IMG/VR virus record: IMGVR_UViG_3300029305_005185
Span: 1 to 64,000 of that record
Reading direction: 5' to 3' (one strand)
From: a virus
Lineage: Duplodnaviria; Caudoviricetes
Length of the DNA: 64,000 nucleotides
Shown here: positions 1 to 64,000 of the stretch, piece by piece
Position numbering within the stretch: position 1 is the first letter of the stretch
Layout: every line of letters starts with the position of its first letter
The notes under the pieces: generated by a model
What the model saw: only the letters and a program-made list of their open reading frames with translations
What the model was told of the DNA's origin: nothing
Databases searched by the model: none
Position numbers and translations under genes: made by a program

Positions 1-202
1 TGATGATAAATTTGTTAAATATAAAACTGATAAAGAAATTTCTTTGTGGTTTCAAGAAGAAATAGAGCTTAATAGAATAAATTTATATTCCATTGATATA
101 GAAAAGTATTTAGATGGCACTATTACACGGCTTTTAGAAGAAAATGCAGAATTAATTTCTAATCATAATAATAATTTATTATATGAATACGAATCTAATT
201 AA
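1..202 (+). CDS. 3' end of hypothetical protein (truncated by window edge)
   Basis: Frame 2 is open from the window start to TAA at 200-202 and overlaps the next ATG at 183. Confidence 0.5.
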   Translation, partial: DDKFVKYKTDKEISLWFQEEIELNRINLYSIDIEKYLDGTITRLLEENAELISNHNNNLLYEYESN

Positions 203-665
203 ACTGTCAAACGATTTATTCTCTTTTAATAATAGTTGCCATCTTGATATAATAAAAGAAGAATATAATCTTAAAGGAACTATCAATTCTCTTTTTAATT
301 CTATTCTACCGCAAGAAAATTTAAAATATTCTTTTTCTTAGAGAGAATCGTTTTATAATAACATTTTAAAACAACTAGAATTAAAATATACTGAAAAAGA
401 AAATATTATTATATTGTTATTTTGTTTGCTTCGTTCTTATGGTAGTGCACTTGAAGAACAAATGGATAATATAATTAAAAAATATTAGATTATTCAAAAT
501 TATAAAAGTACTATAAAATATTTAAATTATATTAAATATCAAGTAGAATTTCAAATATTCTGTTTTATAGTACTTTCTTCTGAAAAAGAATATCCTCAAG
601 AATTTATCTCTTTTATAAAAGAACAAGTAGATAAAGGTAATATTATTTTTAAAAATTATTGTTAA
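183..665 (+). CDS. hypothetical protein (160 aa, 2 in-frame TAG)
   Basis: ATG183 to TAA665 is open except for TAG at 339 and 486; it fills the gap up to the GGAGG RBS of the next gene. Confidence 0.6.
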
Positions 666-680: not shown

Positions 681-1298
681 ATGGGCTTGCTTGCTGGAGA
701 TAGTATTTCTCCTTCTGATTTTATAACTCTTAAAGAAAAAATTAAAAATATTATGCTTAATAAAAGAGTTTACTACGGTTCATTAGTAGAATACGGTGGA
801 AAAGAATATGATTATGAAAACGATCCAACTACTAATGGAATAATTTACGCTGAGCACCAAAATAAAATTGTTATTCCAATGCGCGCTATAACTACTAATA
901 ATGTAGACGCTATAGCAGAAAAAAATGATAAAATCATTTCTTTGCAAAATATAAGTACTATAATCGACGCTTTTGATGCAAAAAAAGCCACTTCTTCAGT
1001 TAAAGATTGTCAAAACTATTGCAGTGGATTGTGTGTAACTTAGTGTAGTACTGGTTGCACTGGTTGTAGCAATGATTGCGCAAAAAATTGTGGATCAAAT
1101 TGTAGCGGTGGATGTGAAGGATGCGAAGGATGCAGTGGTTGTGGTGGAGCATGTTCAAGTGGATGCACTAGTGAATGCGGTGGCAGCTGCCGTGGATGCA
1201 CTCATTCTTGTACTGGAGGATGTACTTCTGACAATTGTACTAATGGCTGTTTTACTAATTGCTATTCAACATGCTATGGCAAAGCGGTAACAGTTTAA
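681..1298 (+). CDS. Cys-rich CxxxC-repeat protein 1 (205 aa, 24 Cys in C-terminal half, 1 TAG)
   Basis: GGAGG RBS; reading through TAG1041 continues the CxxxC periodicity (CSGLCVT-Q-CSTGCTGCSNDC...) to TAA1298. Confidence 0.85.
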
Positions 1299-1334: not shown

Positions 1335-1988
1335 ATGGCAAATAAAGAAATGCAAGCTTCTGATTTTATAGAATTAAAAGAAGCTATTAAAAATGAACTT
1401 CAAAATAGAAGAAAATATTCTCCAAATTTATCAGGAAAAGCAAAAGATTTCCCTGATGGAGACCCAGTAAAAAATGGAAAAGTTCTGGCGCAACATTAGA
1501 ATACAATTGTAGATTAGATAAAAGAAATTACTACAACAAATGTTGATGAAAGAGCAGTTGCGAAAAAAAATAAAGTTCTTTCTTTAAACAATTTGAAAAC
1601 TATTATAAATGGATTAATAGCTTACCCTATTTATAATAATCGTCAAGGCGGATATTGTACTAATAGTACCTGTGCTGGATTATGTTTTAATACTTGTGGT
1701 AATACTTGTGATGATTCTTGCACTGGAACTTGTACTGGCACTTGTACTGGAGAATGTAAAGGTGGCTGTGGTAGCGGTTGTTCTAGCACCTGCACTGGTG
1801 GTTGCTCAGGTGGTTGCAGTGGATGTGGAGGTTGTGACAACACTTGTACTAGTAGCTGTGGAGGAAAAAGATGCGGCTCATGTAGTGGTACATGTAAAAG
1901 TAGTTGCGCGCCTGATAATTGTACAAATAGTTGTATAGTTGTATGCCAAATTACATGTAAAAATAATGGAGGGCCATATAATTCCTAA
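1335..1988 (+). CDS. Cys-rich CxxxC-repeat protein 2 (217 aa, 26 Cys, 2 TAG), paralog of protein 1
   Basis: GAGG RBS, ATG1335; the N-terminus SDFIELKEAIKN...AQH*NTIV aligns with SDFITLKEKIKN...AEHQNKIV of protein 1; TAG at 1497 and 1515. Confidence 0.85.
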
Positions 1989-3619: not shown

Positions 3620-3641
3620 CGTGTATAAAGAGGTAATTTAT

Positions 3642-5741
3642 ATGGCAAAAAATAAAAGAGGGTATATATCTGAGTTTTACCAATATCCGTTAAGCGGCGG
3701 CCCTTTTGTATATTATCAATCCTTACTTTCTAAACCTTCTTATGGAGCTAAACTTGTAGCTCGTTCTGCTTAGAAATATTTATTTGGAGCATCAAATATT
3801 CTTAACAGAGAAAACTATCATCAAAGAATAAGTCAAGCACTTAATATTCTCAAAGCAAACGCAGATGAAGAAGCTCGCAAAGAAGCCCTATATATGGCCA
3901 CATTGGCTAAAAAATTAGATAAATACGGCGTTGTTGATTTACCAGATATAACAGAAGACCCTTACGGTTTTATTGTAAAATTAAATGAATTTTTACGAGG
4001 AGCAGAATCATTTAAGCAAGAACTCTTAAAAGAAAGAGAGCGTATTCATACTTATCGCACAGCTATAAATAGATATGGTTCCGCGAAAGAAGTAGCAAAA
4101 GTAATTAAAAACGGCGGCGACCAAGATTTTACTTCTGAATAGTTAGCTGATGCTTTACATAATATTTCTAACACCATAGAAGGCCGCAAAGGACAATCAA
4201 GTTCTTTTACAACATATTCTTCTTCTATTCGTGATAATTCTTTAGCAGGTAAAATAGCAGAGGCAGTAATAAGTCGTTTAATTCAACTTCATGGTCCTGA
4301 ATTAATATAGGCTAATGGAAACCAATTTGTATTAAATGGTAGACAGGCTTATGCTATGACCACATTAATTGTAAATGAAATAGAACGCAAAATTATAGCA
4401 AGTGGTGGACAAATTACACAAAAAACTGTTGATAATATTAGAAAATCTATTTTTGATAAAAATGATTCTTCTAGTATAAAACAATATGATAACATTATAA
4501 ATAAATACATGGAAGCTAGTGAATTTCACGCCGAATCTCTTAATTCCTTCACTGATGCTGTTGTAAATAATGACAAATATAAGAAAATGCTAGGTCCAAA
4601 AGGTAAATATGGTCGCGGTATTTTAAACAAACGTATTCGTCCTTTGAAAGAACTTATTTCAAAACAAAAAGTTTCAGAACAAGAAAAGAAAGATATGAAT
4701 ATCGCATTAGAACAATTTAGTCGTGAATGGGCGGCCGCGGCATACGCTGCGCAACCTAAAGTTTATTTTACTGCAGAAGCTGATTTGGGAACTTTGTTTA
4801 AAAAACATGGCGAGGTTTTATTTTCTGGTGGCTATGCTAAAGATGATATTGGCTCAATTGTTGTTTCTTACGAATTTGGAGATGACAAAAAAACCAATTA
4901 GGCATTAAGTCATTTGGAAACAAAAATTAAACAAATTAACAGAAATGCTATGAAAAGTATGCGTTATAAAGAAGGTACTGCAAATGAATTTCTTAATAAT
5001 GCTTTATATACTTTAGAAAGTTTAGAAGAAATGCAACAAGCTTATGAAGAAACTGCCGCTGAGCTTGAAATGAGTATTGAAGAACTAAAAGAATTAGTAC
5101 ATACTTTTACTATACATGGTAACGTAAAAAGCTATGATACCATTGACGCAAAAACAGGTGCGTTTAGCGGCGGTAGTATTGGTAAAAATATTACAGAGCA
5201 ACTCACCAATTTTGCCAACCTTGTTAGTATTGCTGGTTTTGGAGGCGCTTATACAGACTATGATCAAGAATGGTTACTTACCGCAATAATTAACACTGGT
5301 GAAGGATTACTTGGTAGAGGAAATAGAGAAGGGTTAGAAAAATATCTTTCGGCTTTTGCAGGAATGTTACTATTTGATGATGCCTATCTTACTATTAGTG
5401 CTGGTGCAAATTAGTTAGTTAATTCTCTTGGCGGAACAACAGTAGATAAAATCCATTTGTATTCTCTTAATGGAACTATTGTACCTTGCTCTTTCGTTCT
5501 TTATGAAACCTATAAAAATTTAACCAAAGAATTAGCCGCTATTGGAAATGATTTCAGTGGAGAGCATGGAATAAAAGCAACTATTAAAGCGCGTGGTGCT
5601 ATTGGCGGCCCTTTTACTAAACCAGAAGACTGGGCTGCGGAACGTGATGCAGCAATAGCCGCCGCAGACATATAGATTCAATTTATGGGGCATTTTCTTG
5701 GTTTCTTAGATAATCTTGCCCATGCTATGAATCCAGGTTAA
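3642..5741 (+). CDS. large hypothetical protein (699 aa, 6 in-frame TAG)
   Basis: Track ORFs 3894, 4356, 4914 and 5457 share one frame; the only interruptions are TAG at 3771, 4140, 4308, 4899, 5412 and 5673; GAGGT RBS before ATG3642. Confidence 0.8.
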
Positions 5742-7553: not shown

Positions 7554-8957
7554 TTAAATTACTTTTATCCAAATTCTTCCATTAACTTTTTTACCATTCC
7601 ATTCTTCATAAGTAGGAACAGCGCTAACGTATCCAATAATACATTCGGGATAATGTAAAACTTCATCTTTGGTCATAATACTTACCGTACCATTTGGTCC
7701 AGTACATACTGGCGCGCCAGCATAATATTCACTGCGATCCTCATTTGGGTATGCTAATACACGACCGCAAAGAGCGATAGGAGTTTTTGCTACATTAGTT
7801 TCGCCAATAAGCATACCATAAGTATCAGATACAATATTACCACCTAACATTAAACGTTCGGTAGAAATGGAAAGAGTATCATCACCATTTTCCACAACTA
7901 CACGTCCAGCAGCAACAGATTTTGTTTCACGAGCTTCAGCATAATCGTTATAAGCGGCGCCAATTAAAATTTTATTTTTTGCATCAAGATACACATCATT
8001 GCTATAATAAACTTTTGTAATAGTCCCATTTTTAATGTCACTATTTAAAACGCCTAAAATTGGCAATTTAGAATCAGTCGTATTTTCTTTTATTTCAATT
8101 TTCGTCTACTAATTTCTTAAATCTGTTATCGCTTTAGCAATAGTATTACTAGTACCTAAATCTTTAGAAGTAAGCGGAATCTAATCTCCTGCAAGTTTTA
8201 TCTACTTCCAAGTTCCATTTGCTGATAAGAAATAGAAAAAATCTGTAGCTCCCATTTGAATATCAGTAGGTTTTTTTACCAAACCCATTTCAGCCGCGTT
8301 GGGAAAATGTTTTAAGTATTTAGAAAGTCTTGCTTCAATACCATTTTCAGGGTCATTTACTTTAATATCTAATTCATCTAATTGAATTTGAGTGCTTTCT
8401 AAAGCAGCATCTAAATTTTTAATCAGTGTTCTTCCGCCTTCATCTACTAAAAAGAATTGTCTGCTTTCTTTACCATAAGTGCTCGTAAAACCTAAACTGC
8501 TAATTCCCTATATTTTTTCTTGTACAGAATCTGTTAAGAATAAAATATCAAAAATAGAACTTCCTTCAAAGTTTAACAACCCAATTTTATCTTCTTCAAT
8601 TAAACTTTCTTTTATTTCTGTTAAAGTAAAGTAATTTTTATCCTATACAACTGTGTCAACAATTTGTTCTATCATAGCATTAGAATCAGCATTTACAACT
8701 GTATAAGCAAAATTCATATCAGGCAAAGTTACTAAATGAGAATTAGTTGTTCCAATGGCAATTTGATACCATTTTTCCATAACCTCTTTTGGCAAATGTA
8801 TTGGTGTTAAATCACCCCATTTACTTTCTCCATCGCCAACTCTTACTTCAGTTAGTCCTTCTTCTATTGCAAACTCTCCTGCAAATAATGTAGGATTTTC
8901 TTTATCAAAAATAATTTTAGGTGCTAATCTTGTTTCTACAAGAATATTCATTGACAT
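7554..8957 (-). CDS. tail fibre/spike with Mtd_N-like N-terminus and C-terminal Peptidase_G2-like intramolecular chaperone (467 aa, 6 TAG)
   Basis: Track ORFs 8643-8966 and 7554-8066 are in frame and the gap contains only TAG stops; N-terminal NPTLFAGEFAIE...RVGDG; C-terminal YNDYAE...GRIWIKV. Confidence 0.75.
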
Positions 8958-8984
8958 TCTTATCACCTCACTTATTATGTGATA

Positions 8985-9359: not shown

Positions 9360-12230
9360 TTAACATACATAAATCCAAATTCTTCCATTTACTTGTATAT
9401 CATCTTCGCCCCAAATGTTATAGTTTGGTATTTCAGAAACGATACCTACAATTCTATCTGGGTAATTTACAATTTCTTCTCTTGTCATACGAGAAATAGT
9501 TCCATTGGGACCAGAACAAACACAATCACCAATAGAATATATTTCGCGTTCTTCATATGGAATAGCAAGTACGCGACCACATACAGCTGTTGGAGTTTTA
9601 CATTTTTCTGTCTAACCAATTGCAAAACCAAATGTATCAGAAACAATCTTACAGGCAGGTTGTAAACGTTGGGTAGTTTTCTTCATAATTCCATCATGGT
9701 CATCACAAATACAATTTCCAGGAACAGCTTTTTCAGAACTACGATATTCTGCATAATCATTATAAACTGCACCATAAATAGTTTTACCATAAACTGTTCC
9801 AGCAACTCCCAAACCACCAGAAATTTTAACCGCACCAGTGGTTGTAGAAGTAGAAGCAGTTGTATTTGAAAAAGTTGTAACGCCTGTAACTGTGCCACCA
9901 GCTAAAGGAAGATAAGCTGTACTATTATATGCATTACTTCCTAAACCTTTAACTGCTACTTCTTTATCTGTTCCATTCGTATTTACTATAATTGTACCAT
10001 TAGAGCCGCCAGTAGAAACTGCACGGACACCAGAATTATAAAATGTTGTACCACTTAATCCAACGCCATTATTCGCACTATACGTAGTATCTGTAAACAC
10101 CGCATTTGCAGGAACAGTTTTATTCAAAGTATACGTAGTAGCAACAGGTACTCCATTACTAAAATAAACTGGCTAAATGGCTGAACCAGCATCAGCATTT
10201 AATTTATTTGCTGAAGTCGCAGCTCCACCGGCAGAAGAAGAACCAGCATAATTATGAGTATGGTTTTTATCTGCTTTTCCAGCTGCAACAGTATTTAAAG
10301 CATCAATAGCATCATTATTAGCATCAATTAAATCACCAAGTTCTTTTAATGTATCGTATGCCGCTCCAGCGCCATTAAGTAATTCGTTCTTAACTGCAAC
10401 CGCAGCACCTGCTGCGTCATAAGCATTACTATCAGTATAAGCGGCACTGCCCAAACCTTTAACAGCTACGTTAGTTGTAGTTCCATTGGTATTTACGGAA
10501 ATAGTACCATTGGTTGTACCAGTTGAAATATTAAGAACACCTTCCCAAGGAACAGTTACATAAGCTTGATTATTAGCATCTAATTTTAAAGCATAATTTT
10601 TATTATTTTCTGCATAACCTGTTTTAATTAAACCAAGTATACTATCAGAAGCAACTGGTTTCCCAATAATGCGATCCCATACTAAATATTTAGATATATG
10701 CGCCTATGATGAATACCAAGTTGGCAAGCCAGAAGTAAAAATAAGTATATCATCTTCGTTACCACCATCATAAGGAGCATAAAAAGTTACGTTTTTATCT
10801 ACTTTTATGCCATTAATATTTATTTCAAGTAATGTTGGCATAGTACAAATCTAATTGTAAGCTTTGGTTAATCTACCGTATGAATCAACAGTAAATTGAG
10901 GAATAGTAAAAGTGCTTTCTGAAGATAAAGAAAGATTTTCTAATTGCCCATAGATACCAGCAATAACACCAGTTTCAGAAGTTTTATTATCTATATATTC
11001 TACCAATTCATCAAATTTAGTATCAATAGAACCAATGGAATCTCCCAAAGTTAATTCCGCGGCGGTTAATATTCTTTGAACATCACCAGATAAATTATCT
11101 TTTGCAATAGTATTTTTTGCTATATATTCATTAGTTATTGAACCAGGAACAAATGAAGCGCTAATTATCTTTGTATTTTCGTCTACATTAACCTAAATCT
11201 AAGAAGCATTCATTTCATGGGTATAAGTATCTATTAAAAAACTAGCATCTATTAAAACTGGAGCAGTGATATTTTTCACATTTAATTGTAATTCAGCCTA
11301 CTTTCCACTTCTTACAATTCTACCATCAGTAAGATAACACTCTAAAGGGACATCTACCATTCCAAATACTTCTCCTTTTTGAGAAAAAGTATATTGAGTT
11401 TTATCCGCATTAGAAGTTAAAGAAACTGCATAATTTCTTTCAATTTCTCCAATTTCTTCTTCTATATTTTCAATTGAAGTTTGATGTTTCTAAATTTCAG
11501 TATCATGCTTTTTATCTTGAGATTCTCTTGCTTCTGTTTCAGTACTAATTAAATTTTTTAATTGACTTTCTAAATTAGTTATTTTTTCATTAAGATTATT
11601 ATCTTCATTTACGTAATTAGTAGCAATAGTATCAACAGCATCTTCAAGAGCTGTCTAACCACTAGTTCTTGTTGCTATCTCAGCATTTAACGAACTTTGC
11701 AAAGAAGATAGAGAAACACCTTCACTTTCACCAGAAAGACTATTAATTTGAGTCTACAAATTTTCAATTGCCAGCTTTCTGATATCTTCTTCATCTTTTA
11801 TCGCACCACTATTAGTATTTATTTTATCATTTAATTCATTATACTAATCAGTCGCATCACTTGCTAAAAGATAAAGACTCTTTTTCTAAAAGCACATTAT
11901 ATCTTTATCGTCTAAACCTTTAACATAAATTTCATTGCCTGCTACAGAAATAGTACCATTTGTTTTACCAGCTGTTATATTTATAGCTCCTGACATTTCA
12001 TTTATAAAAGGTAGATCTTTTAAAGTTTTAACACCATCGCCAATTTTTATTAATTGATAAGAAACCGGTGGCATTTCTATCGCGGCGGCATCTGCTTCAT
12101 TTAAAATATCATATATAATTACTTCTCCCTCATAAGGAATAAAAGTTTCTTCTTTGGTTCTCCAATTAGCCCAAGAGTCATTACGCAACTTGATTCTAAC
12201 ATTATAATATTTATTAAACTATTCGGACAC
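9360..12230 (-). CDS. long tail fibre protein with C-terminal Peptidase_G2-like chaperone (956 aa, many TAG)
   Basis: Four track ORFs are in one frame and the gaps contain only TAG; GTG12230 with GAGGTGA RBS; FIPYEGE...KIGDG N-terminus, three NGTI...VKGL repeats, AGSAI*PVYFSNG, YNDYAE...GRIWIYVC. Confidence 0.8.
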
Positions 12231-12315
12231 AATTCTCACCTCTTTTGGCATTAGTTCCTATAATAGAAGAAGTAAAATAACTTTATCGTCACATTAAAAA
12301 TTTCTAAAACATAAT

Positions 12316-16617: not shown

Positions 16618-16678
16618 GAAAAAATCTTCTATACAACTAAATCGTCTCCCTACCTTATTTTTGAAGGAGGTGAGACCT

Positions 16679-44009: not shown

Positions 44010-44018
44010 GGTGATATT

Positions 44019-45036: not shown

Positions 45037-45042
45037 AATTTT

Positions 45043-45094: not shown

Positions 45095-45122
45095 AAAATA
45101 AATCAAAAAGGAGAATAAGAAC

Positions 45123-46112: not shown

Positions 46113-46115
46113 TTA

Positions 46116-47090: not shown

Positions 47091-47095
47091 TATAT

Positions 47096-48998: not shown

Positions 48999-49000
48999 AT

Positions 49001-49043
49001 AAAAAAATAAAGAGGATGACGAAAGTCATCCTCTTATTTTTTT
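49001..49043. terminator. bidirectional terminator between the replication and tail modules
   Basis: A-run, AGAGGATGAC-GAAA-GTCATCCTCT, T-run. Confidence 0.9.
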
Positions 49044-52000: not shown

Positions 52001-53505
52001 AAATAACTATTGCCATTTCCACCTTTTAAAACTGGCTCATTGGATAAAGACTAAGCATATTTTTCATATGTTTTTAATTGTTCTTGAGCGCTTTCCATTG
52101 AAGCTTTTGCAGTGGCTTGCAATGCTTCAAGCTCATTTAACTATACAGCTAATTCAGAACCAATTTCTTCAACTGAAATTAATTCTTTATTCAACTTATG
52201 AATTTTTATTTTATATGTTTCTATCTCAGCTTTTTGGAAATCATTAATAGAGCCAACTTTATATAAATAATCAAAATTTAAAATAAAGTCATCTAATAAC
52301 GGATTTAATGAAGTATCTGCTATTGAAACATATCCAGTATCCATAGTTTCAGAGGCAATTGGATTAACATACATTTTAGTATAGACTTCGCTACTATCAA
52401 TAGTACGAGAAATAGTATTTAAATTATGTTTATAATTTATTACATAAGGCTTATCTGTTTTAATAGCTCTATTAAAAAAAACTACTTTTTTGCCAGTCCA
52501 AACCTAATTGGCATCATCCCAATAAGTTCTTTTAAAATGACCATCTGGGTCACAAGCGTATTCATAAGTACAGTAGACTTCAAATGTTTCTGCTAAAGTT
52601 TGAGTAATATTATACTTATTACTATTATAACAATCTACATAGCGTGCTTTTTCTCTAAAATTAGTTACCTATATAGGAGATAATTTATTATTTATAATAT
52701 CCCAATTTTCAACATAAGGATTCTCATAAATAACACTTTCATCTCTTGGCTAATATAAAGGGCCGCTAGTACCGGCATTTATTAAAAGCCAATTTACCAT
52801 TTCTTTATCTAAATATTTTGCATCTTTGCTATTATAAAAACTGTAACCTTCAATCTAGCCAGCAGTACCACCATCAATAAAAGTATCAGAAAGCTAATCA
52901 AAATAACCACGCCAATCCATACGAATTTCATAACACCATGGAGTAAGCCATTTAACAACATATCCATTTTCATCTTTTTCATTGGGAAAAACTTTATCTA
53001 ACCAATAATCAATAGATGCTAAGGTAGTATCATCTTTAGCAAAATCTTGTTCTAAAACAGTGCTATTTAATTCAATTTTATATCCCTATTTTCCAAGTTC
53101 GGCGAAAGCTAAACCATTACAAGTTATTTCTTTATAAACTGAAAAGTTTTTGTCTCTTTTATTTATTATCTTATCAACGATAAAAGGAAACACTTTTACT
53201 TCTTCTTCAGAAAACTAAATACTAACTTTTAATACTCTTGTATTTTCAACTAAAATCCCATTCTCAGCGTCTTGCCATCGTGGATTTATAATCCGTTCAT
53301 TAGGTGTTTCACTTAAATAAAATTTCGGAATTTTACAAGTAAAATTCTAAGTGCCATCATCTTTAATTTCCATTCGTGGCTCAACAACCTATCCCAAAAA
53401 AGTGTCTTCATAGGATTGCAAGCAACCAATAAAGTTATCTTGCAATCCAAAGACATCAATTTTATACGGGCGGGCTTTTTGATGTAAATTTATGCTTACA
53501 CTCAA
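49042..53505 (-). CDS. tail tip/baseplate hub (Tal-like minor structural) protein (~1487 aa, ~26 TAG)
   Basis: Frame scanned by eye: no TAA/TGA between TTG53505 (GGAGGGG RBS) and TAA49042; SNKYNITQTLAETFEV, WETAITPMGINANLITTGQLDT; lies downstream of Dit and TMP. Confidence 0.75.
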
Positions 53506-53520
53506 AATTAACCCCTCCAA

Positions 53521-55338
53521 TCACGCATAAGTATATTTATATTCTAATTTTATATTTTTTACAGCAATTGTTTCATCTATTCCGTGATTAAAACCTAAAA
53601 TATGATAAGAAGCAATTTTACCTGTAGAAATATCAATGGTGTCTCCACCATCTATTTGTAAGTAGCTAGAAGCAATAATATTGCTACAATTTTCATCCTA
53701 AATTTCTTCTAAAACAATTACACTATCACTATTAAGTTGATTAGTTTTATATGTAATATAAGCCTATCCTTTTTCTCCCAAAAAACTTAAAGTATAAGGA
53801 TAAAAATCTCCAAAAGTACCCTCTGTAGTTATATCTTCTTTGCGAAAACCATCGTTGCACTTCGCAAACATCATTAACATCATAATATTAAAATAACCAA
53901 ACCAATCTACTTCTATAGGGTCTTTAGTAATGGGATAGGGGTAAACAATTACTTTATTTGTCTTAAAACATCCTGGAAAATCGTCTTCTTCATCATATTC
54001 AATATTTTCATAATCTCCAGCATGAAAAATTACTTCCCCATATACATCTTCAGTTACTTTATCTAAAGTTTCTATATGTTTTTTCGTCATTGGATAATTT
54101 GTATCATCGCTATCTATTAACATACCCTATTGAATTTTTAATTCATCATCTGTAGCATAATAAAAATTCTAATTTAACTACATTTTCTAAAGAACTCTTA
54201 TTGCCCAAAGTAATACTTTTCCATTAATTAATTCTTCTTGCAAACGTTCTTGTAATTCAACTAAAGCTCCATGTTCATTTTCTTCATAAAAATGCCAAGC
54301 AGCATTAATAGCTTTATTTACATCAGAACTAATTTCTGGTAAACCATATTTAAAAGATTTAATATAACGAGTATTTTTCCCAAAACCATTTTCACTAGAT
54401 AAAATATTATCTGTAGTTGAAATAGTATTGTAGGGATAAATAGAATTTGTTATAGAATCATAAATTTCATTAAAATAAACTGGCTACCATTGCTTTGTAT
54501 TTATTGAAGTAATAGAACGCTATAATGTAAATTCTATATTAGCCTCAGAAGCAATTGTAGAAGGATTATAAAAAGGAATAAAAGAAGCTTCATCATAAAC
54601 AATAGAATTATCAGGCTATTCTTCATATTCAGTCCAACGTTTAATTATTTTTTCATTTTCATCTTTTTCAAATAAAGTTTTTTCTAAAATAACTGGCAGA
54701 CTAAACCAGCTACCAGTAGCACATTTCACATTTTTAGTCCAGCTATCTCTTGCAGGTATATTATTATGATACATCATGCAAGCCGCGGCCTATCCATTGT
54801 CATTCATATTAGCCAAATCAGCTATTTTTCCATCCAATACCTAATAAAAAGAATATGTAAAAGGTCTATCCTATATAAACTAAATTTTACATTCGCCTTT
54901 ATAAATTCTACTAGGAAAACTTATACCAGCAACTTTAGCTTCTTCCTAAAAAGGAATAAAAGCAAAATCTACTACTGTCTTAATGCGAACATAACAATAT
55001 CTATCAAACCAAGCATCTTCATAAAATTGCCCATAATGTCCCGGACGAAAATGCCGTTTAAAATCTTCAAATTGACGTTCTGTCATTCCATCTGTTGCCA
55101 AAGAATATGTATATGTTTTCGTTTTAAAATTAGTGCCCCAATAATACTAACCCCATACACCATTTACATTTGAAGTCTCATCTTCAAATTCTGGGGAACC
55201 AGCGAACTGGTACCGGTCGCCGCTTGTAACGGCGACCAGTCCAAATTCACTAATATGACGTCCAGCAAAACTGAAGTCAATATATTCTTTTCCCCAAGGC
55301 ATGAGATTACGGGTAAGTTCTTCAACTTGTATACCCAT
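53521..55338 (-). CDS. distal tail protein (Dit-like; 605 aa, ~15 TAG)
   Basis: DFSFAGRHISEFGL...FEDETSNVNGVWG*YYWG; frame open except for TAG; directly downstream of TMP. Confidence 0.75.
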
Positions 55339-55345: not shown

Positions 55346-58300
55346 TTACCTCCTATTTACGCCGCGACCAGATGCGCGCGCGGCAATTGAATATATTTTA
55401 TTTGTTATATCATTATAAAGTTCATCAACATCGTACTGATCATTGAGTTGCTGTACCTGTAGTACAATAGCGCCAGATTCAATATTAATTCCTCGATTTT
55501 CAGTTGTGTTATTGATTATGTTAGCTATAGAACTACGAATTGAAGCTCCGAGATTTGAAGCAAAGGAATTAAAAGCATCTTTCAAAGCTTCTCCACGACC
55601 GGAAGCCATAGCAAGTCCTTCTTCAAGAATACGATTTTGCTCAGCAGTAAGAATACGTTCTGGTTTAGATTTAGAACCATCAACCCAAGCGGGACCAGTA
55701 TAATTAATTATACCGCCTTTTGCATATTTATTACCAGAATCTGCCTATTCTTTCATCCAATTTTTAATATGTTCAAATAGTTCTTTTTGCGCTAAATCTA
55801 AAGCTTCTTTTGGAGTTTTACCAGAAATAATAGCAGAAGCATAAGTGTCTCCAAATTCTCTTTTCCATTTTTCTTGCTATTCAGTGTCAGCTTTATTAAA
55901 GGAATCTTGCAAAGTTTTACCCTCTTTTGTATCCCAAACAGCATTAAAAGATTTATTCCCCTCTTCAGCGTAATACTATCTTTCTCTTTCTGCGGTAAAA
56001 ATACCAATTTTCTTAGCCCATTCTGTTAACATATCTTCTTGTTGTAAAGCAGATTGTTCAAAGAAATTTGTACTATTGCCTAGCATAAAATCTTGAATTT
56101 CAGCATCAGTACCCGACATTACTTCATAAACTTTTTGCCAAATTACACCATTTTCTTGCTGATATTCAAGAAGCTCTTCTTGAATTTTAACTTGCTAATC
56201 AAGTAATTTTGCCTGATTCTCATTGGCTTCTCGGATATTTTCCAAAGCATTTTCCTAATTAGAGAAATATTCATCTTTAAACATTCCATCTAATTGTTTT
56301 TCTAAATCAGCAATCTCAGAAGCGGAGCCACCACTACGACGCTTCAAGGCAAGCGAACGTTGTAATTGTTCTCTGTCTTGAATAGCAGTATTTTGCTCAT
56401 ACATCTAACGTTCTGCGCTAATTGCTTCCTAAATACCATTAGCATAAGCTTCATTAGCTTCTTTGATTAAGTCGTTTTGCTTTTTGAGATTTTCGATATT
56501 TTCTTTCCAAGCATTTACAATGATATCATAGATTTCTTTGGATAAATCAATTTCATTATCTCGAATCTCTTTTTCAATCTCATTGATTTGCTCTTCAAGC
56601 TCGGCCAATGTGCCTTCAGTTTCTTGAACAGTATCACGTAGTGCATCATAGTCATCAATTTGCTTTTGAAGTTCTTCATAGAACTTGGCAACCAACTCTT
56701 CATTTTCAAGCTCTTCGCCATCAGTATTAGTATAAGACCAACCAAGAGATTGAACAAAAGCAAGTTGTTCTTCACCTGACATCTCATTCATTTGAGATAA
56801 GACTTCAAGAGCACCTTTGCCTCCATTAGTTTCATTGCCTTTCTTATATTGCAACAAACCATTTTCGTCAACCTCTAAGAATTGAGACCAAATCTTATTG
56901 GTATTAATATGCTCGGCTTGACGTTGAAGTTGTAGTTGTTGGAAACGAAGTAAATCTTGTTGGGTATTTACTTGGTCATCTAGCAAAGCTTGAGTGGCAC
57001 GTAGATTCTTTAAGTATTCTTTACCGTCAGTTATATTTTTGCGTTTAGCAAGAAGAACATTAATTTGTCCTTCAATATCTGCAATCTGGCGAGAAAGATT
57101 ATACCATTCTTGTAAATCGGCGATATGGGCTTTTAGAGAATTTTCGTCTCCACCACCGCCGCCACCGCCACCACCGCCACCGCCAAGAAGATCGGCAGCG
57201 GAAAGGCTATTAAGTAAACCTTGCCATACAGATTTTGCACGACGAACTGCGGCCAAAGCAGCTTCAATACCACTGCCTCCTGCAAGAGCTGGACCAGTGA
57301 CATTGCCAGTAGCATAAGCATTAGGCTCTAAAGGTAAACCACGAGCATTTTTCATTTGTCCGTTAAGAATACCTTTTGTCTGAAGATGATTAAATACAAT
57401 AGCATTTTTAGGTAGTTTTACAAATTCTGCGCCGGTCTAACCAAGTAAATGATATTGACCATTATATACGGCTAATTCAGGGCCAAGTTCACCGACAAGA
57501 GTTTTATTTGCTATTTGAGCTCCAGTTGCTAATCGTCCAATAGAACCATCGGCGTAAGCGGGACCAGTAATAGCATTCATAGTACCGGTATAGACTTGTG
57601 GAATATTTCCATTACGTCTTATATTATAAGTTATTGTATATTCAGCATTACCCATTGGAGGTACTTCGCCACTAATACCTGTTTGATAATCAATTTGTGG
57701 AGTAGCATTATCTAGTGGTGGAACTTCGCCAGTAATTCCTGCATTATATTGAACATCTACTTCTGCAGTACCGCCATCAACAGTTGGAATTGACTAATCG
57801 CCACCACTTTGTCCGCCGCCACCAATACCAGCACTATTAATTTGCAAATTAATTGGTGTTTCTAACGCAGTTTTTAACTAATTAAAAGCTTCCTAAATAG
57901 CATTAAATTCGCTTGTTGCGCCTTCTGAATTTATATTTAAATTAAGACCACCTTCAAGTGAAGTACGAATAGCTGCTACATCAGTTTCTAACTAAGATAT
58001 TGTAGTTGTTCCAGATTCACTAGTACTAAAATCAATACTATAAGTATAGGTTGTTGTTCCATCCGCGTTAACCGTAGAGCTGTCTATATTAACTTGCTAT
58101 CCAATTAATTCAGAAATATATTGAGCTGGGTCAACTCCACCGGTATCTCCAAGCTATATTTCAAAGTTTCCAGTATCAACTACATAGGTAATAGTAGTTT
58201 CACCCTATCCTTCAACTACAATATTTCTAGTTCTTATTGTACGATTAATTTGATCACCAATCTCTTGAGTTGCTTCTGGGCCGAAACCTTCATTGGTTAA

Positions 58301-61300
58301 ATAATCTCCAACAAAAGTATAGCGCATTTTAGTTGTAACAACTATATTTCCTTCGGCATCCACAGTTAAACCATCAACTACTAAACCAGAAGAAGCTAAT
58401 TGATTATTCAATTGTTCAGTTAACTATTCTTTAATCGCTTCAAAAGAGCCTTCGCTATCTAGGCCGGTAATAGTAAAAGAGTCTCCTCCAATAGATTCAA
58501 AATCTATTTGTAAATTCTAATCCCCAACAGCAATTTGAGTTACCCCAGCTAAAGCTGCGTTCATACGGCTAGAAAAATCAGAACCTAATGATTGAATCCA
58601 ACCTTCTGTTCCAAGATTCTAAAAAAGACTATCATAATAGTTTGTTAAGGTTTCCTGCCATCCATCAGCCAAGTTACCTTCCTAATCATATAAACTTTCT
58701 CCAAGATTTCTTGGATTCATAGCTTCTGCAATGGCTACTGCTTGGTCTTGAGTTAAATTTGCTAACTGTTCTCTTAAAGCAGAACCTATATTCGGGTCAT
58801 TAATTTTCGTAGCTAAATAATTCATTCCAAAAAATGCAGTCGGATCTAAAGCATTACCACCTGTAACCAACTACATTAAATTCTGTAAAGATTCATTTTG
58901 TCCGTTTTTAATATTAGTTTCGAATTCAATTAAAAACTACTACTTTTCTTCTAGATTGGACAAATTATTATAAGCATTATAAGCATCTTCTAAATTTGTT
59001 ATTGGATTACCCTCACCATCGCCACTAAAATCGAAATTAATACTAGTATCAATATTACCAATTGTGGCTAAAGCTAATAAAGCTTCTAACATAGTTTCTA
59101 ATCCAGACAAATATTTTATCTATGAACGTGCTGTGTCTTTTAATCCTTCGTTCATTCCATCTGCCATAGCAGTCGCTGCTGCACCAATTTCTAGTCCTAC
59201 AGCGGCAAAACCTTGAGCATCAACTTGGCCAATAGTTTCTGAAGCAGAAACAACTGTATTAGCAAAGGTTTGGATATCCATACCTGCAATTCCCAAGCTT
59301 CTAGAAACATCATTCCATTGTCCAGAACGATCAAGCTAACTAATAAGATTATAAAAATCATTATAACCCATTTGCTCACTATCTCTTAAGCCAGTCAAAG
59401 CGTTTTTAACTTTATCAATAGTTCCTACAAAACGATCGAAATTTTCTGTCATTCCGTCTGTAGAACTTCTATCCATAAAATTAAATTCTAAAGATTCTGG
59501 GTCAAACATAGCGCTATTTTCAGCCTAACGCAAAACTTCAACCCAGTCTTCCATTCCACTAATTACTTGACCCTATTCATCTAAACAAGCATGAATAGCA
59601 TCCTAAATATCTTCGTAGCCTTGAATGGTGCTATTTTCACCATCTCTCCACATTTCCCAAATTTGATCGCCAAACTCTCCACCAAGTCCTTGAGCATTGG
59701 CTCTAGAGTAAAGCTGAGTAATAAGAAGCCTTTGATCAGCTTCACTCATCTAAACACCACGACTCGTAGTTCTTACTGCTACACCAGATAATCCATATTC
59801 ACGAGCTAAGCGATTAAAATCTTGAGCGCTCAAAGTTCCTTCAATTCCAGAACTTAAATCTGAAATACCCGAAGAAATACTGTCAATTATACCATCAACA
59901 ATAAAAGCTTGAAGTTGTGCTAAACGCTAATTAATGTAAGCAGCATCGGCATCCTATGCTAAAGCTCCCTAAATGATTGCAGAATAAATAGAATCTATTA
60001 TAGCCTAAGAGCCGCCATTTAATGCAGCCTCGATACTATCGGCGGTATAACCAGTATAACCTAGTGTATCATAGATACCAATTAATTCTTCCGCTGTCAT
60101 CTCTCCACCGGAAGCTAATTCTTGCATTGCAGTGCCAACTTGATTAAAAGACTCTCTAACGTTATCAAACTGGGCAATTTGCTATGCTTGCTATCCTTCG
60201 GCCATCGCACTCCAGAATTGTTCGAACAAATCTATTGCCTAAAATGCTTCCGCCTATTCTTCAGCTGTCATATCGGAAGTGCGAACTGCTTCTTCGGCTT
60301 CTGCAATAGTTTGGTCTATTTCGGTACGACTAAAAGTAGACATTCCAGTGCCGGCTATTATGGCTACCTTATCACCATATTGAGCGCGAAGCTATTCTAG
60401 TCTACTAGTCTACGCATTCTAGAACGCCATATCTACCATTTCCATAGCAGTAGCGCCCGCTTCACTCATCGTAGAAAAGCCAATAGTTTCTGCCAAATCA
60501 CTTGCAGAATCAAAAGTTTGTATGTCAAAAGTTTGAGTATCCTTGTCATATTTAAACAATTTACTAATCTTTGACATATCAGCCTATTCGCCTGCAATCA
60601 TTTGAAATGCTGTTGCTATTTCCGCAGCATCTTCAACAGTAAAACCTGGAGAATCTTCAGACATATTACGAATTTTTTCCATCGCGGAAGAATAATATGC
60701 TAAAGAATCAGCTTGTTCGGCAATAACTTTGGTGAAATCAAAGCCGAAATCTTTTCCATATCCAATTGAACCAAGATAGCTTGTATATAACTATTCAAGT
60801 TTATCAGTTTTAAAACTAAAAGTTAAATTATCATCAGCAACTATTTGTTTACTAATTTGTTTTAAGCTTGTAGCAAATTTATCACTAAGATCGTCTAATT
60901 CAATTGGAATATCAATTCCTTCTATTTGACTTATTTCTTTAAATTGAATAAGTTCATTTTCAGTAATATTTCCATAAGCTTTTTTAATCAATAGTTCATA
61001 AAGAGTTTCACGCGCTTCATTTAAACCATCTTTATAATTAGCTATTAACTATTCATAAACTGAATCAATAGTAGCCTAATCGATTCCTTCGGGCAATGCC
61101 TGTTTAATATATTCTTTAATTCCGTCTTTTGCCTAATCTGCTTCAGTTCCACCAGCTAAAATTTCGCCAATACTTTGTAAAAAATTAGCTTTAATATCTT
61201 CCAATTTTTCTGGAGAATCTTTAAAAATTTCAGCCCATGTACTATCAGTTACTCCTTCAGCAGAAGCCAACTAAGTACCCAAATCTTCTACAGCGCCTAT

Positions 61301-64000
61301 AGCAGATTCTAATTCATTATTTACTAAACCTAAAATAGCATTTTTAACCTATTGAGGAACTTCTTTCAACACTTCTGCATTTAGAAGTTCTTCACTAATA
61401 TTCCATACTCCACTGCCAGCGTAAGTTTCAGAAGTGTAAGCGCTTAAGTCAACACTCTCTCCAAGTAAAGATTGCAATTTTCCAAGATCGTCGGCACTAT
61501 AGCCAGCCAAGCCCTAAGAAGACAACATACTAAAGATTTCACGCTTATCTTCAGTAATTTTGTCAGCACCTTTAAAATTTCTTGCAGTCTAAGAAGCAAG
61601 AAGCGCTTTTGTTGCCTATTCAGATTGGTAATCTAATTCTGCCTAAATTGCCTCAACAGCTCCGTTACGGATAGTTGTCAAATAAGCTTCAATTGGCCCC
61701 TAAGCCTCATCAAAACTACCAATGGATTCTCGCTAAGAGTCTGTTAATCCTTCATACCAATCTTTCGCCGCCTAAGAGTACTATTCTAATAACTACTCGC
61801 GCTCACCCTCAGATGCTTCAGTAGCGAATTCCTCTCCACCAAAAGTATACTAATCTTGTTCTTTTAAAATAGCAAGCTATCTTGCTAGAGATTTATCTAA
61901 AACATCTGTAGTACTAAGTTTATAAGCTTCAGCTACTTCATTAATATTTTTTGCGTACCATTCACCGTTAATTAGCTTAAAAGCATCGGTAACATTTTCA
62001 TACCCCATCTTTTTAGCTATTTTATCAGCTGTTTCAAGGTCAGTACCTTCCGAAGCATCCTCTAAAGCCTATTTAGCAGTATCTAGTTCTGAAGTTAAGG
62101 TACTACCAAATGAACCATATTGAGTTATTAAATTTTCCGCATATATAGGCAAATCTTTTAATGGGTCAATAACACTCGCATCAACACCAATTTCTTCTAA
62201 TTGAGTAACTGCTTCTTCAACGCCTAAAGAAGAAGTAAGGTCAGCATCAGCGATAATTTTCTCTGCCTATGCTTTTAAATCACTGTCTTCTATATTAGCA
62301 AGACCAGTAATTATCTTAGTATAAGCATCTGCCATTGCCTATGCAGCTGCTGGGTCATCTTCACCAGCAATTTCTTCAACATATTCAGCATATTGATTTA
62401 ATTTATGCTAAATTGCTGTAGAAATTCTATTAGTCGCACCAGCTGTTTCATCCACTGAAATATTTCCTTCTTCGTCAACCTAGCCATATAATTTACTAAG
62501 TTTTTCCCAACGGCCTCCAGCAGATAAACGTTCTAATTTTGCCTATGCTCTTTGTATAGATTCATCTTCAGTTTCAGTTGCCTAATTATAATGTTCAAGC
62601 GCTAAAGCCAATTCTTTGCTGTCAGAATTCGCAGCGACTCCAAGTAAATTAGCAACCTTAGTGGTAAATGTATTTTCATCTAACATGCCAAGTTTTGCTT
62701 GTTCAATTAGTGAATTATACTTATCTACATTTTCACCTTCGGTTAGCATCTAAGCTAAAGATTCTGCCGTTGCCATGCGAACATCAGTTTTTTCGGTTAG
62801 CGTAGCAGCGGCTTCTGCCTTAATAAAACCTTCATCAGTAAAAATATTTTCATTTACTTCGCGTGTAATTTTATAAGCATCATTCTCACCAGAAGCAATA
62901 AAATCAGAAACAGCAGCCGCGATAACAACATCAGCCAAACCTTTTACATCATTAACGGCAGACTCACTATCTAAATTATATGACTATCCTAATCTGCTAT
63001 AATTCTCTAGAGAAGTTAACTAAGCCTATTCTAAATTTCTTTTATCCTTTCTTGAATCTAAAGCTAACTAACTCTAATTACCAAAAAATTCATTACGTTC
63101 TGCGTCTGTATATCCGGTAATTGCAGAGAAAATACTATCAAAAGTTTCTCTAGTTACACCAAAATTAGCATTATTAGCGGCTTCATTTCTTATTAAACTT
63201 AATAACTCTGCTTCTGTTGTCGCCGCTTGAAAGCCAGTCAATGACTCCTGAGAAGCTTTTGATAAATCAAATAAAGTAGAATATTTTTCCCATAATTTTA
63301 AATCTTCGTTATTTAAAGCCTATGAAAAATTCTTTATTTGTTCAATACTTAGTCCAGCGTCAGTAAGAGTTAAAATAGAATCAAGGAATCTGCCGCCTTC
63401 TGACCTATCAACAAGTGTTTCATAGCCATATTCTGCATTCGTTGCATAATAAGAACCGCCAAAAGCTTCTAGTAATGAAATCTATCCCCTAGATAGTGTC
63501 TCTTCATCTAAACTTCCCTATTCTCTGAGAGCTCTAAAAAGGCTTAGCTATTCTTCTTGAGTTATTTTAAATTCCTTACCATCTTTATCCCAATAAGAAA
63601 ACCCTTCAGTAAGAAAATCCATCCAAGTATTTTCATTAGAAAATTCAGCTGTTTTAGCTTTTTCCTAAAAAGCATCCATGAATGGAGTAAGAGCTGCGTC
63701 CGCCGCTTTTTGCTATTCTTCATTTTCCTTAACCGCTGCTTCAGCAGCAATAATTTGCGCCGCGGCCGCTTCATAAGCAGCCTATGCAGCAGCTTGTCTA
63801 GCATTTGTTAATTCTGCTTCAGCAGCTATTACACTAATAATAGCATTGCCTGCGGCATCTACACCAGAAGTTAATTCTGGAAAATTACTAGCAAAAGCAT
63901 TTTGAGCATCAATATAAGCCTATTGTGCTTCAAGACTATCGTATTGTTCAGATTCCAAACGTTTCAATTCATCTATAGAAGTCTATAGATTACTTGCTCG
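55346..64000 (-). CDS. tape measure protein (>2880 aa, 5' end outside window, many TAG)
   Basis: Seven track ORFs (55346, 56429, 57437, 58205, 58682, 60791, 62750) share one frame; Ala/Glu-rich helical composition; LVGELGPEL and YAKGG...GPAWVDGSKSKPERIL; gaps not exhaustively scanned. Confidence 0.8.

What the first reader, a model, noticed from the sequence alone, without database searches (positions are those of the whole stretch)
183..64000. TAG is a sense codon, most likely Gln (translation table 15)
Seen: more than ten genes are broken only by TAG and never by TAA/TGA, for example 3642-5741, 7554-8957, 9360-12230, 49042-53505, 53521-55338 and the TMP. The window holds its own evidence for the amino acid: paralog 1 reads AEH-Q(CAA)-NKIV where paralog 2 reads AQH-TAG-NTIV. 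Family motifs recalled from memory also give Q at TAG positions: RuvC EGI*LQ and LANL*GV, fibre AGSAI*PVYF, Dit G*YYWG. Established: TAG-to-Gln recoding occurs in crAss-like, Lak and other gut phages. Consequence: standard-code annotation misses or fragments over a third of this window.
Basis: partly seen in the sequence, partly recalled or inferred. Interest (0 to 1): 0.8.

Follow-up and report, generated by a model that had tools for sequence, protein, structure and literature searches.

The report
Phage reads TAG as glutamine
This 181-kb phage reads the stop codon TAG as glutamine in its tail, fibre and DNA-processing genes, a known trick of gut and rumen phages, so standard gene callers break more than a third of this window.

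Summary
The observation and the reading are both confirmed. The phenomenon is already known (genetic code 15).

- **In-frame TAG:** Eleven genes in the window are interrupted only by TAG, 164 times. They cover 24,849 of 64,000 bases (38.8%).
- **Coding density:** Greedy ORF coverage rises from 75.1% to 95.2% when TAG is sense. It does not rise for TGA (74.0%).
- **Amino acid:** In 80 related phage loci read at DNA level, the window's TAG columns carry CAA/CAG far more than any other codon. Gln beats every other residue in 1,999 of 2,000 site bootstraps.
- **Cultured controls:** Two conserved terminase sites are Gln in 6 of 6 cultured standard-code phages.
- **Gene pattern:** The replication block 12377-45036 has no interior TAG.
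- **Suppressor tRNA:** The genome encodes one tRNA(CUA), outside the window at 150928-151018. It encodes no release factor, GlnRS/GluRS or PylS.
- **New detail:** This tRNA looks derived from tRNA-Trp and carries a long variable arm. Ten related phages share that arm. A ROOL RNA lies about 200 nt downstream.
- **Verdict:** New member of a known kind, moderate interest.
- **Recalled motifs:** The fibre motif does not. The paralog evidence alone is weak.

The parts
183..665 (+). ORF of 160 aa with 2 in-frame TAG; no family match
681..1298 (+). Cys-rich paralog 1, 205 aa, 1 in-frame TAG. It carries CAA (858-860) where paralog 2 has TAG.
   Evidence: (weak phrog_6085 match)
1335..1988 (+). Cys-rich paralog 2, 217 aa, 2 in-frame TAG. 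The TAG at 1497-1499 faces Gln in paralog 1; the second TAG faces Pro.
3621..5741 (+). ORF of 706 aa with 6 in-frame TAG; no family match
7554..8966 (-). Fibre-like protein, 470 aa, 6 in-frame TAG. It shares a C-terminal domain with 9360-12251 and with two fibres elsewhere in the genome.
9360..12251 (-). Tail-fibre-like protein, 963 aa, 13 in-frame TAG. Residues 660-732 are 66% identical to the tail protein of Faecalibacterium phage FP_oengus.
12377..45036 (+). Replication and nucleotide-metabolism block with no interior TAG: PhoH, topoisomerase II subunits, Sak4-like, DnaB, primase, RecJ, YorL-type DNA polymerase, NrdD
16661..17119 (+). Gene of the TAG-free block whose first stop is TAG, with TAA two codons later. 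TAG probably serves as a backed-up stop here.
19940..20353 (+). Gene whose first stop is TAG at codon 121, with further TAGs and then TAA within 17 codons. Its true end is ambiguous.
45123..46112 (+). GIY-YIG homing-endonuclease-like protein, 329 aa, 4 in-frame TAG. At site 274, 52 of 75 relatives have Gln and 18 have TAG.
47896..48621 (+). RuvC-like Holliday junction resolvase, 241 aa, 10 in-frame TAG. Sites 142, 157 and 199 are Gln or TAG in 80, 80 and 78 of 80 relatives.
49042..53520 (-). Large tail protein, 1,492 aa, 26 in-frame TAG; no family match; relatives in 64 of 80 loci
53521..55338 (-). Tail protein next to the tape measure, 605 aa, 15 in-frame TAG. The distal-tail label rests on position only; no Pfam or PHROG match. 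Site 64 is Gln in 119 of 140 cluster representatives.
55346..64000 (-). Tail length tape measure protein. The window holds 2,884 of its 4,079 codons and 79 of its 116 in-frame TAG; the gene ends at genome position 67585.
   Evidence: phrog_4211, 1e-44

Best explanation
The window is the first 64 kb of a complete 180,867-bp tailed phage genome that uses two codes.

- **Standard-code genes.** Replication and nucleotide-metabolism genes are written so that they can be read by a standard-code host. They have no interior TAG.
- **Recoded genes.** Tail, fibre, tape-measure, terminase, RuvC and homing-endonuclease genes carry in-frame TAG that is read as glutamine (NCBI table 15).
- **Decoder.** Decoding is done by the phage's own tRNA with anticodon CUA, at genome 150928-151018, outside the window.

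Inferred steps:
- A host enzyme, most likely GlnRS, charges this tRNA with Gln. The known precedent is the E. coli tRNA-Trp amber suppressor, which accepts glutamine. The tRNA then outcompetes host RF1 at TAG.
- Recoded genes can be completed only once the tRNA has accumulated, so recoding delays late functions.

Shown here: TAG is sense, its meaning is Gln by comparative evidence, the tRNA exists, and the gene-class pattern holds. Not shown: the charging enzyme, the timing, and the peptides.
For: 1. **TAG-specific open frames and coverage gain**.
2. **Real conserved proteins are restored:**
   - RuvC: Pfam PF02075 and phrog_827.
   - GIY-YIG.
   - Tape measure: phrog_4211.
   - Large terminase and portal.
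3. **The whole lineage tolerates TAG.** Inside tblastn alignments to 80 related loci there are 1,427 TAG, 15 TAA and 2 TGA.
4. **Amino acid, sense codons only.** Of 2,115 aligned codons, Q is 590 (27.9%), K 281, E 181, S 140, Y 63 and W 2. Log-likelihoods are Q -5314 and K -6212. The site bootstrap gives Q in 1,999 of 2,000.
5. **Standard-code relatives.** In the 23 relatives with at most 1 TAG, Q is 169 of 583, K 68 and E 44.
6. **Cultured standard-code Firmicutes phages.** Terminase sites 82 and 393 are Gln in 6 of 6. Overall 14 of 32 aligned cells are Q.
7. **tRNA(CUA).** It scores 60.5 bits against the Rfam tRNA model. It has U1.U72, G2-C71, G3-C70, G73, G10 and U35.
8. **tRNA follows the code.**
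   - Relative G003 has no in-frame TAG and no CUA tRNA. G002 uses TAG and has one.
   - CUA tRNAs were found in 12 of 38 TAG-using records. Among the 11 TAG-free records there was 1, a doubtful call.
9. **Glutamine codon share.** CAG/(CAA+CAG) is 0.50 in TAG-free genes and 0.19 in TAG-containing genes. (CAG+TAG)/(all Gln codons) is 0.47.
10. **Candidate hosts.** Five assembled genomes (MAGs) in which relatives were binned were tested. GlnRS scores over the cut-off in 3 of 5, and RF1 in 3 of 5.
Against: - Many TAG sites are not Gln in relatives. Only 16 of 48 sites have Gln as the plurality residue.
- Some sites are dominated by another residue: E, S/T, M or N at sites 131, 153, 156 and 166 of 53521-55338, and W or Y at terminase site 258.
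- Paralog columns within the genome give Q, P, E and K.
- The tRNA body resembles tRNA-Trp (56 of 74 positions identical) more than tRNA-Gln (47 of 76).
- Its long variable arm is a feature of Ser, Leu and Tyr tRNAs, so tRNA anatomy alone does not say Gln.
- The AAG share of Lys codons also falls in TAG-containing genes (0.39 to 0.22). The CAG shift is therefore partly a general composition effect.
- The host is unknown. The host hints come from binned MAGs of relatives, which can be mis-binned.
- No expression or peptide data were examined.
Confidence: 0.9

Rival explanations
1. TAG is sense but stands for another amino acid. Candidates are Trp (the tRNA body is Trp-like; table 32), Ser, Leu or Tyr (long variable arm), Lys or Glu (second and third in the tally), or pyrrolysine.
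For: - The suppressor without its variable arm is 56 of 74 identical to a tRNA-Trp(CCA) of relative G002. Its anticodon arm differs only at position 35.
- The long variable arm.
- K is the second commonest residue at TAG columns, at 13.3%.
- One paper reports Trp isotype calls for 19.4% of phage suppressor tRNAs (PMC10879173, passages).
Against: - W is 2 of 2,115, Y 63 and S 140 at TAG columns. Log-likelihoods are W -8894, Y -8126, S -6834 and K -6212 against Q -5314.
- The most conserved TAG columns carry almost only Gln codons or TAG.
- No PylS was found in the genome.
- The D arm has a 4-bp stem and a 7-nt loop.
- An amber suppressor of tRNA-Trp is known to accept glutamine. An amber tRNA-Ser switched to Gln after two acceptor-stem changes (review PMC9976931, passages).
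Confidence: 0.05
2. The TAGs are true stops. The interrupted genes would then be pseudogenes, assembly errors or naturally split genes.
For: Public protein collections hold fragments that end at these TAGs. One example is a 119-aa record identical to residues 406-524 of 53521-55338.
Against: - There are 164 TAG and no TAA or TGA in about 8,270 codons of 11 genes.
- 57 of 80 relatives show the same pattern, with TAG at other positions.
- Essential genes are affected: terminase, tape measure and portal.
- A cognate tRNA is encoded.
- The record is rated complete by CheckV.
Confidence: 0.01
3. The host itself reads TAG as glutamine. The phage would then simply share its host's code, and there would be no code switch during infection.
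For: None found here. The host is unknown.
Against: - The 33-kb replication block has no interior TAG. Six of 101 TAG-free genes appear to end at TAG with a backup stop.
- 23 of 80 relatives use no TAG at all.
- RF1 is present over the cut-off in 3 of 5 MAGs that hold relatives.
- Published surveys found standard-code hosts for such phages (bioRxiv 10.1101/2021.08.26.457843, passages).
Confidence: 0.03

Closest known systems
Stop-codon-recoded (code 15, TAG to Gln) phages of gut microbiomes: crAss-like, Lak, Agate and others (Borges et al., bioRxiv 10.1101/2021.08.26.457843, passages read; Peters et al. PMC9523058, abstract in search listing only)
   Same: - In-frame TAG concentrated in structural and late genes.
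- TAG-free early genes.
- A phage-encoded tRNA(CUA).
- Low GC (31-38% here).
- Recoded and standard-code members mixed in one clade.
- No phage aaRS.
   Different: - A different lineage: the nearest terminase and polymerase hits are phages of Firmicutes, not crAss-like or Lak.
- No RF2 gene.
- I could not see the paper's supplementary tables, so this clade may already be listed there.
Phage Phass-1 group (PMC10607447, passages read): 133-138 kb gut siphophages with TAG recoding, tRNA-SUP-CTA genes and tape measures of 3,149-3,209 aa
   Same: - TAG to Gln in terminase, tape measure, portal and fibres.
- No aaRS.
- A giant tape measure.
- The large terminase is homologous (32% identity over 98% of the query).
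   Different: - This genome is 181 kb with one suppressor tRNA rather than two or three.
- No DNA-level similarity to GenBank phages.
- The tail protein 53521-55338 has no GenBank phage match.
SPbeta-like phages, Geobacillus virus E3 and Enterococcus VRE9/H1-type large siphophages (cultured, standard code)
   Same: - YorL-type DNA polymerase (34% identity over 98%).
- YonF-type terminase (up to 39% identity).

Both.
   Different: Those phages use the standard code. At the two conserved terminase TAG sites of this phage they carry CAA or CAG.
E. coli amber suppressor derived from tRNA-Trp, and amber tRNA-Ser converted to Gln identity by acceptor-stem changes (review PMC9976931, passages read)
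   Same: - The suppressor here looks like a tRNA-Trp with C35 changed to U.
- It carries G73 and a weak 1:72 pair.
- Comparative evidence says it delivers Gln.
   Different: It is natural, phage-encoded, and has a long variable arm. Charging was not tested.

Membership tests
Code 15 (TAG to Gln) recoded phage | Conserved genes are interrupted by in-frame TAG only | tested here: met
   11 window genes carry 164 TAG and no TAA or TGA. Family matches were recovered for RuvC, GIY-YIG and the tape measure.
Code 15 (TAG to Gln) recoded phage | Coding density rises when TAG is made sense, and not for the other stops | tested here: met
   Coverage goes from 75.1% to 95.2% for TAG. It is 74.0% for TGA and 87.9% for TAA. 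This used a greedy ORF tiling, not Prodigal, which was not available.
Code 15 (TAG to Gln) recoded phage | TAG columns align with Gln in homologues that carry sense codons | tested here: met
   The first protein-only tally (556 Q of 1,180 cells) was set aside as possibly circular, because public proteins may have been translated with table 15.
Code 15 (TAG to Gln) recoded phage | A suppressor tRNA with anticodon CUA is available | tested here: met
   Genome 150928-151018, found by ARAGORN and by Rfam RF00005 at 60.5 bits. It lies outside the window; the window has no tRNA.
Code 15 (TAG to Gln) recoded phage | Peptides with Gln at TAG | not testable with these tools
   No proteomic data were available.
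Code 15 (TAG to Gln) recoded phage | Phage-encoded RF2 or GlnRS (optional; seen in a minority of published cases) | tested here: not met
   PF00472 and PF00749 gave no match in the genome, while the control genomes matched.
Crassvirales / Lak phages | Hallmark genes (terminase, polymerase) nearest to those groups | tested here: not met
   Terminase matched 148 GenBank records, by first word of the organism name: Bacillus 82, Lactococcus 22, Enterococcus 7 and others. No listed hit bore a crAss-like or Lak name. The polymerase is nearest SPbeta YorL.
Pyrrolysine decoding of TAG | PylS present and TAG rare and gene-specific | tested here: not met
   No PylS_Cterm match. TAG makes up 1.4% of codons in 69 genes.
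tRNA-Gln (membership of the suppressor tRNA) | Gln identity set: weak 1:72 pair, G2-C71, G3-C70, G73, G10, U35 | tested here: inconclusive
   All these positions fit, with the identity set taken from PMC9976931. However, the body is closer to tRNA-Trp (56 of 74) than to tRNA-Gln (47 of 76), and the variable arm is long.

The most novel reading that the evidence does not exclude
The decoder may be a distinct, conserved class of natural amber suppressor. It would be a tRNA-Trp-derived body with anticodon CUA, a weak or mismatched 1:72 pair, and an acquired long variable arm.

- The arm is shared by this phage and at least 10 related recoded phages, with different stem sequences.
- The arm may act as a determinant or anti-determinant. 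It could steer charging to Gln and away from TrpRS, or protect the tRNA from host tRNA-targeting defences.
- Together with the neighbouring ROOL RNA (or cow-rumen-4 RNA in relatives), it could form a code-switch RNA module.
Probability: 0.2. Interest if true: 0.65.

Novelty: new member of a known kind. Interest (0 to 1): 0.35.

Why it matters
**Annotation.** Any code-11 annotation of this genome and of its roughly 165-190 kb relatives breaks the tape measure, tail, fibre, terminase and RuvC genes into pieces. Such fragments are already in public protein collections. Blind use of table 15 instead creates false antisense ORFs over standard-code genes. A mixed model is therefore needed.

**Biology.**
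- This adds a large lineage of siphophages, probably of Firmicutes hosts, to the recoded phages.
- Of 80 relatives, 57 are recoded and 23 use the standard code. That makes a good natural series for asking how recoding arises.
- It also offers a suppressor tRNA of unusual build whose charging could be tested directly.

Tried and rejected
- **GenBank phages.** Megablast of 34000-54000 and tblastn of the tail protein 53521-55338 found no match.
- **IMG/VR with a single protein.** No relatives. An alignment-based scan then gave 80 loci.
- **Protein-only tally at RuvC TAG columns**. Kept only as a lead, because the public proteins may have been translated with table 15.
- **E. coli RuvC structure sequence.** The alignment is too weak to use (E 0.87).
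- **BLAST of the suppressor tRNA against five relatives.** Too insensitive. It was replaced by a covariance model.
- **Theta (HDV-like) ribozyme downstream of the suppressor.** Rfam showed none in genome 149500-152500 at E up to 1. I do not know whether Rfam holds that family.
- **Folding test of the variable arms against shuffles.** The evidence for the arm is therefore only the ARAGORN drawings and the Rfam insertion.
- **Prodigal and Codetta** were not installed. I used my own ORF tiling and a likelihood tally in their place.
Full report
**What the window is.** The window is the first 64,000 bases of a single 180,867-bp virus record that CheckV rates complete. No end repeat was found. GC is 31-38%.

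**Observation.**
- Under table 11 the window has 36 ORFs of at least 150 aa. With TAG read as a residue it has 49, including very long ones:
  - 3621-5741 (706 aa, 6 TAG)
  - 7554-8966 (470 aa, 6)
  - 9360-12251 (963 aa, 13)
  - 45123-46112 (329 aa, 4)
  - 47896-48621 (241 aa, 10)
  - 49042-53520 (1,492 aa, 26)
  - 53521-55338 (605 aa, 15)
  - a frame open from 55346 to the window end (2,884 codons, 79 TAG)
- In the whole genome that last frame is one gene of 4,079 aa with 116 TAG. It matches tape-measure families (phrog_4211, 1e-44).
- A greedy ORF tiling of the window covers 75.1% under code 11 and 95.2% with TAG sense. It covers 74.0% with TGA sense and 87.9% with TAA sense.
- For the whole genome the gain is 75.7% to 91.0%.
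- The eleven TAG-bearing genes span 24,849 bases, which is 38.8% of the window.

**Which genes are recoded.**
- The plus-strand block 12377-45036 has no interior TAG. It encodes:
  - PhoH
  - both topoisomerase II subunits
  - a Sak4-like protein
  - DnaB
  - primase
  - RecJ
  - a YorL-type DNA polymerase
  - NrdD
- Recoded genes in the window:
  - fibres
  - the tail module
  - a RuvC-like resolvase (Pfam PF02075, phrog_827)
  - a GIY-YIG endonuclease
  - two Cys-rich paralogs
  - two unknowns
- Elsewhere in the genome:
  - The large terminase has 6 TAG and the portal has 1. The probable major capsid gene, 73022-74059, has none.
  - Further fibres and a 2,324-aa protein carry TAG.
- Six of 101 TAG-free genes of at least 100 aa have TAG as their first stop, followed by TAA or TGA within 20 codons. 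Two are in the window, 16661-17119 and 19940-20353. TAG may therefore still end a few genes, with a backup stop.

**Which amino acid.**
- A search with the RuvC protein, with X at each TAG, gave 120 full-length public proteins. Q filled 556 of 1,180 aligned cells at the ten TAG columns.
- The best hit is identical to the window protein apart from Q at all ten TAG positions and one D/E difference. Those proteins may have been translated with table 15, so I did not rely on them.
- I fetched DNA instead. An alignment-based scan of IMG/VR found 138 relatives, and the best 80 loci were kept.
- tblastn of all window proteins against these loci gave 920 alignments.
- At 65 TAG sites there were 2,330 aligned codons. 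The commonest were CAA 489, TAG 210, AAA 205, GAA 146, AAT 125 and CAG 101.
- Counting sense codons only (2,115), Q is 27.9%, K 13.3%, E 8.6%, S 6.6%, Y 3.0% and W 0.1%.
- Substitution profiles measured on the same alignments give these log-likelihoods: Q -5314, K -6212, E -6412, S -6834, Y -8126, W -8894.
- These counts are not independent. I therefore gave each of the 57 sites with at least 5 sense homologues one vote and bootstrapped the sites. Q won 1,999 of 2,000.
- The most conserved sites alternate almost only between Gln codons and TAG:
  - RuvC 142: 61 Q, 19 TAG
  - RuvC 157: 64 Q, 16 TAG
  - RuvC 199: 63 Q, 15 TAG, 2 other
  - GIY-YIG 274: 52 Q and 18 TAG of 75
- Evidence against is real but expected for variable positions. 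Only 16 of 48 sites have Q as the plurality residue.

**Independent standard-code controls.**
- 23 of the 80 relatives have no TAG in any aligned region, and 24 have at most one. The low-TAG tally used the 23 of these with at least 500 aligned codons; L081, with 364, was left out. Q is 169 of 583 cells there, K 68 and E 44.
- The large terminase has homologues in 148 GenBank phage records. I took six cultured standard-code phages:
  - Geobacillus virus E3
  - Alicyclobacillus KKP_3916
  - Enterococcus VRE9_4
  - Brevibacillus Sundance
  - Bacillus vB_BcoS-136
  - Bacillus FADO
- In these six, terminase sites 82 and 393 are CAA or CAG in 6 of 6. In all, 14 of 32 aligned cells are Q. Site 258 is W, W and Y in the three that align.
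- For the tail protein 53521-55338, an exhaustive profile-free search found 1,216 relatives. Among the best 150 cluster representatives, site 64 is Q in 119 of 140. Sites 131, 153, 156 and 166 are mostly E, S/T, M and N.

Gln codons CAA+CAG make up 2.69% of codons in 101 TAG-free genes and 2.67% in 69 TAG-containing genes. The latter add 1.37% TAG. CAG/(CAA+CAG) falls from 0.50 to 0.19, while (CAG+TAG)/(all three) is 0.47. This looks as if TAG has largely replaced CAG. However, AAG/(AAA+AAG) also falls from 0.39 to 0.22, so part of the shift is a general effect.

**The machinery.**
- The window has no tRNA. The genome has 27, none for Gln with UUG or CUG, and one with anticodon CUA at 150928-151018.
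- Rfam's tRNA model matches that tRNA at 60.5 bits, with a 17-nt insertion in the variable region.
- ARAGORN draws these features:
  - a 7-bp acceptor stem with U1.U72, G2-C71 and G3-C70
  - discriminator G73
  - a 4-bp D stem with a 7-nt loop
  - a 4-bp variable stem
- No release factor, GlnRS/GluRS or PylS domain was found in the genome, while the control genomes matched.
- Without its variable arm, the tRNA is 56 of 74 identical to a tRNA-Trp(CCA) of relative G002. Its anticodon arm differs only at position 35. It is 47 of 76 identical to that phage's tRNA-Gln(UUG).
- A review of tRNA identity says three relevant things (PMC9976931, passages):
  - U35, the acceptor stem and the discriminator are GlnRS determinants.
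  - An amber tRNA-Ser switched to Gln after two acceptor base-pair changes.
- My inference is that a host GlnRS charges this tRNA with Gln.
- Relatives of the phage lie in MAGs labelled Oscillospiraceae, Acutalibacteraceae, Bacilli, Clostridium and others (9 loci). Of five such MAGs, three have GlnRS over the cut-off and three have RF1 over the cut-off. This is only a hint, since phage contigs are often mis-binned.

**The tRNA across the lineage.**
- I searched 49 relatives' records with a covariance model built from two suppressors. It gave 44 matches, and 30 loci were returned and inspected.
- ARAGORN found CUA tRNAs in 13 records. Ten are 88-98 nt with a long variable arm, two are 74-75 nt, and one call of 77 nt is doubtful.
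- All ten long ones are in TAG-using relatives. Among the 11 TAG-free records searched, only the doubtful call appeared.
- Fully read relatives agree. G002 uses TAG and has a 98-nt CUA tRNA. G003 has no TAG and has none.
- The variable stems differ in sequence between phages while staying complementary in ARAGORN's drawings. A shuffle test of this was not run (see Tried and rejected).
- I found no description of long-arm phage suppressors, but the searches were limited, so this is no proof of novelty:
  - The full-text search found 176 papers with at least 3 of 4 terms. Of these, 12 were listed, and none described it in its title or abstract start.
  - The word 'variable' does not occur in PMC10879173 or PMC10607447.
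  - In PMC12386605 it refers to other things in the passages shown.

**Comparison with what is known.**
- Stop-codon recoding to Gln in phages is established. So are its bias to late genes, phage suppressor tRNAs, rare RF2 and aaRS genes, and clades that mix both codes (bioRxiv 10.1101/2021.08.26.457843, passages).
- Peptide proof exists for crAss-like phages (PMC9523058, abstract in the search listing only).
- This phage is not crAss-like or Lak. Its terminase and polymerase are nearest to SPbeta-like, Geobacillus E3, Enterococcus and Phass-1 phages, at 32-39% identity.
- Verdict: a correct finding, a new member of a known kind, with an unusual suppressor tRNA as the most interesting loose end.
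- The supplementary tables of the cited surveys were closed and may already list this clade.

Noticed in passing
L006:7216-7836 (+), genome 151216-151836: A full-length ROOL RNA (RF03087, 330 bits, E 1e-76) lies about 200 nt downstream of the suppressor tRNA. A ROOL RNA also lies about 930 nt upstream of the suppressor in relative L117. ROOL is known to sit near tRNAs and in prophages (PMC5737381); its function is unknown.
   Followed up: partly
L112:1976-2041, L114:1971-2038, L132:67-130: The cow-rumen-4 RNA motif (RF02948, 61-68 bits) lies within about 0.4 kb of the suppressor tRNA in two relatives (L112, L114) and within about 0.5 kb in a third (L132). An abiF RNA motif lies 1 kb from it in L120.
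   Followed up: no
window 28385-28891, 29091-30323, 30847-31491 (minus strand): With TAG as sense, long antisense ORFs with 2-6 TAG appear over real plus-strand genes (29259-30194 phrog_2367, 30256-31245 Sak4-like, 31338-31826 phrog_4680). The antisense ORFs match no family. Blind table-15 calling would mis-annotate here.
   Followed up: yes
window 681-1298 and 1335-1988: Two tandem paralogs have a conserved N-terminal half and a C-terminal half made almost wholly of Cys, Gly, Ser and Thr in short Cys-spaced repeats. Both give only a weak phrog_6085 match; function unknown.
   Followed up: no
window 7554-8966, 9360-12251; L004:15041-16570; L006:4657-6363: At least four fibre-like genes share a conserved C-terminal domain of about 130 aa. 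The genome carries a family of fibres with swapped N-terminal parts.
   Followed up: no
L002:6022-7059 (genome 73022-74059): The probable major capsid gene (phrog_4088) and a neighbouring 285-aa virion protein have no TAG, while most other structural genes do.
   Followed up: no
window 45123-46112: A GIY-YIG homing-endonuclease-like gene with a hydrophobic N-terminus and a long coiled-coil-like middle carries 4 in-frame TAG. This presumably mobile gene is adapted to the phage's code.
   Followed up: no
protein P0131: A public 119-aa protein record is identical to residues 406-524 of 53521-55338. That stretch lies exactly between two TAGs, so fragments made by code-11 annotation are already in public collections.
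   Followed up: partly
genome 92513-92962 and 161306-177371: There are 27 tRNA genes in two clusters. They include tRNA-Ile(UAU) and three CAU tRNAs, but no ordinary tRNA-Gln. Relatives G002 and G003 each have a tRNA-Gln(UUG).
   Followed up: partly
window 2085-3590: A TAG-free 501-aa gene with a strong match to phrog_850, annotated as an RNA-binding protein (1.8e-127), sits among the recoded genes at the start of the window.
   Followed up: no
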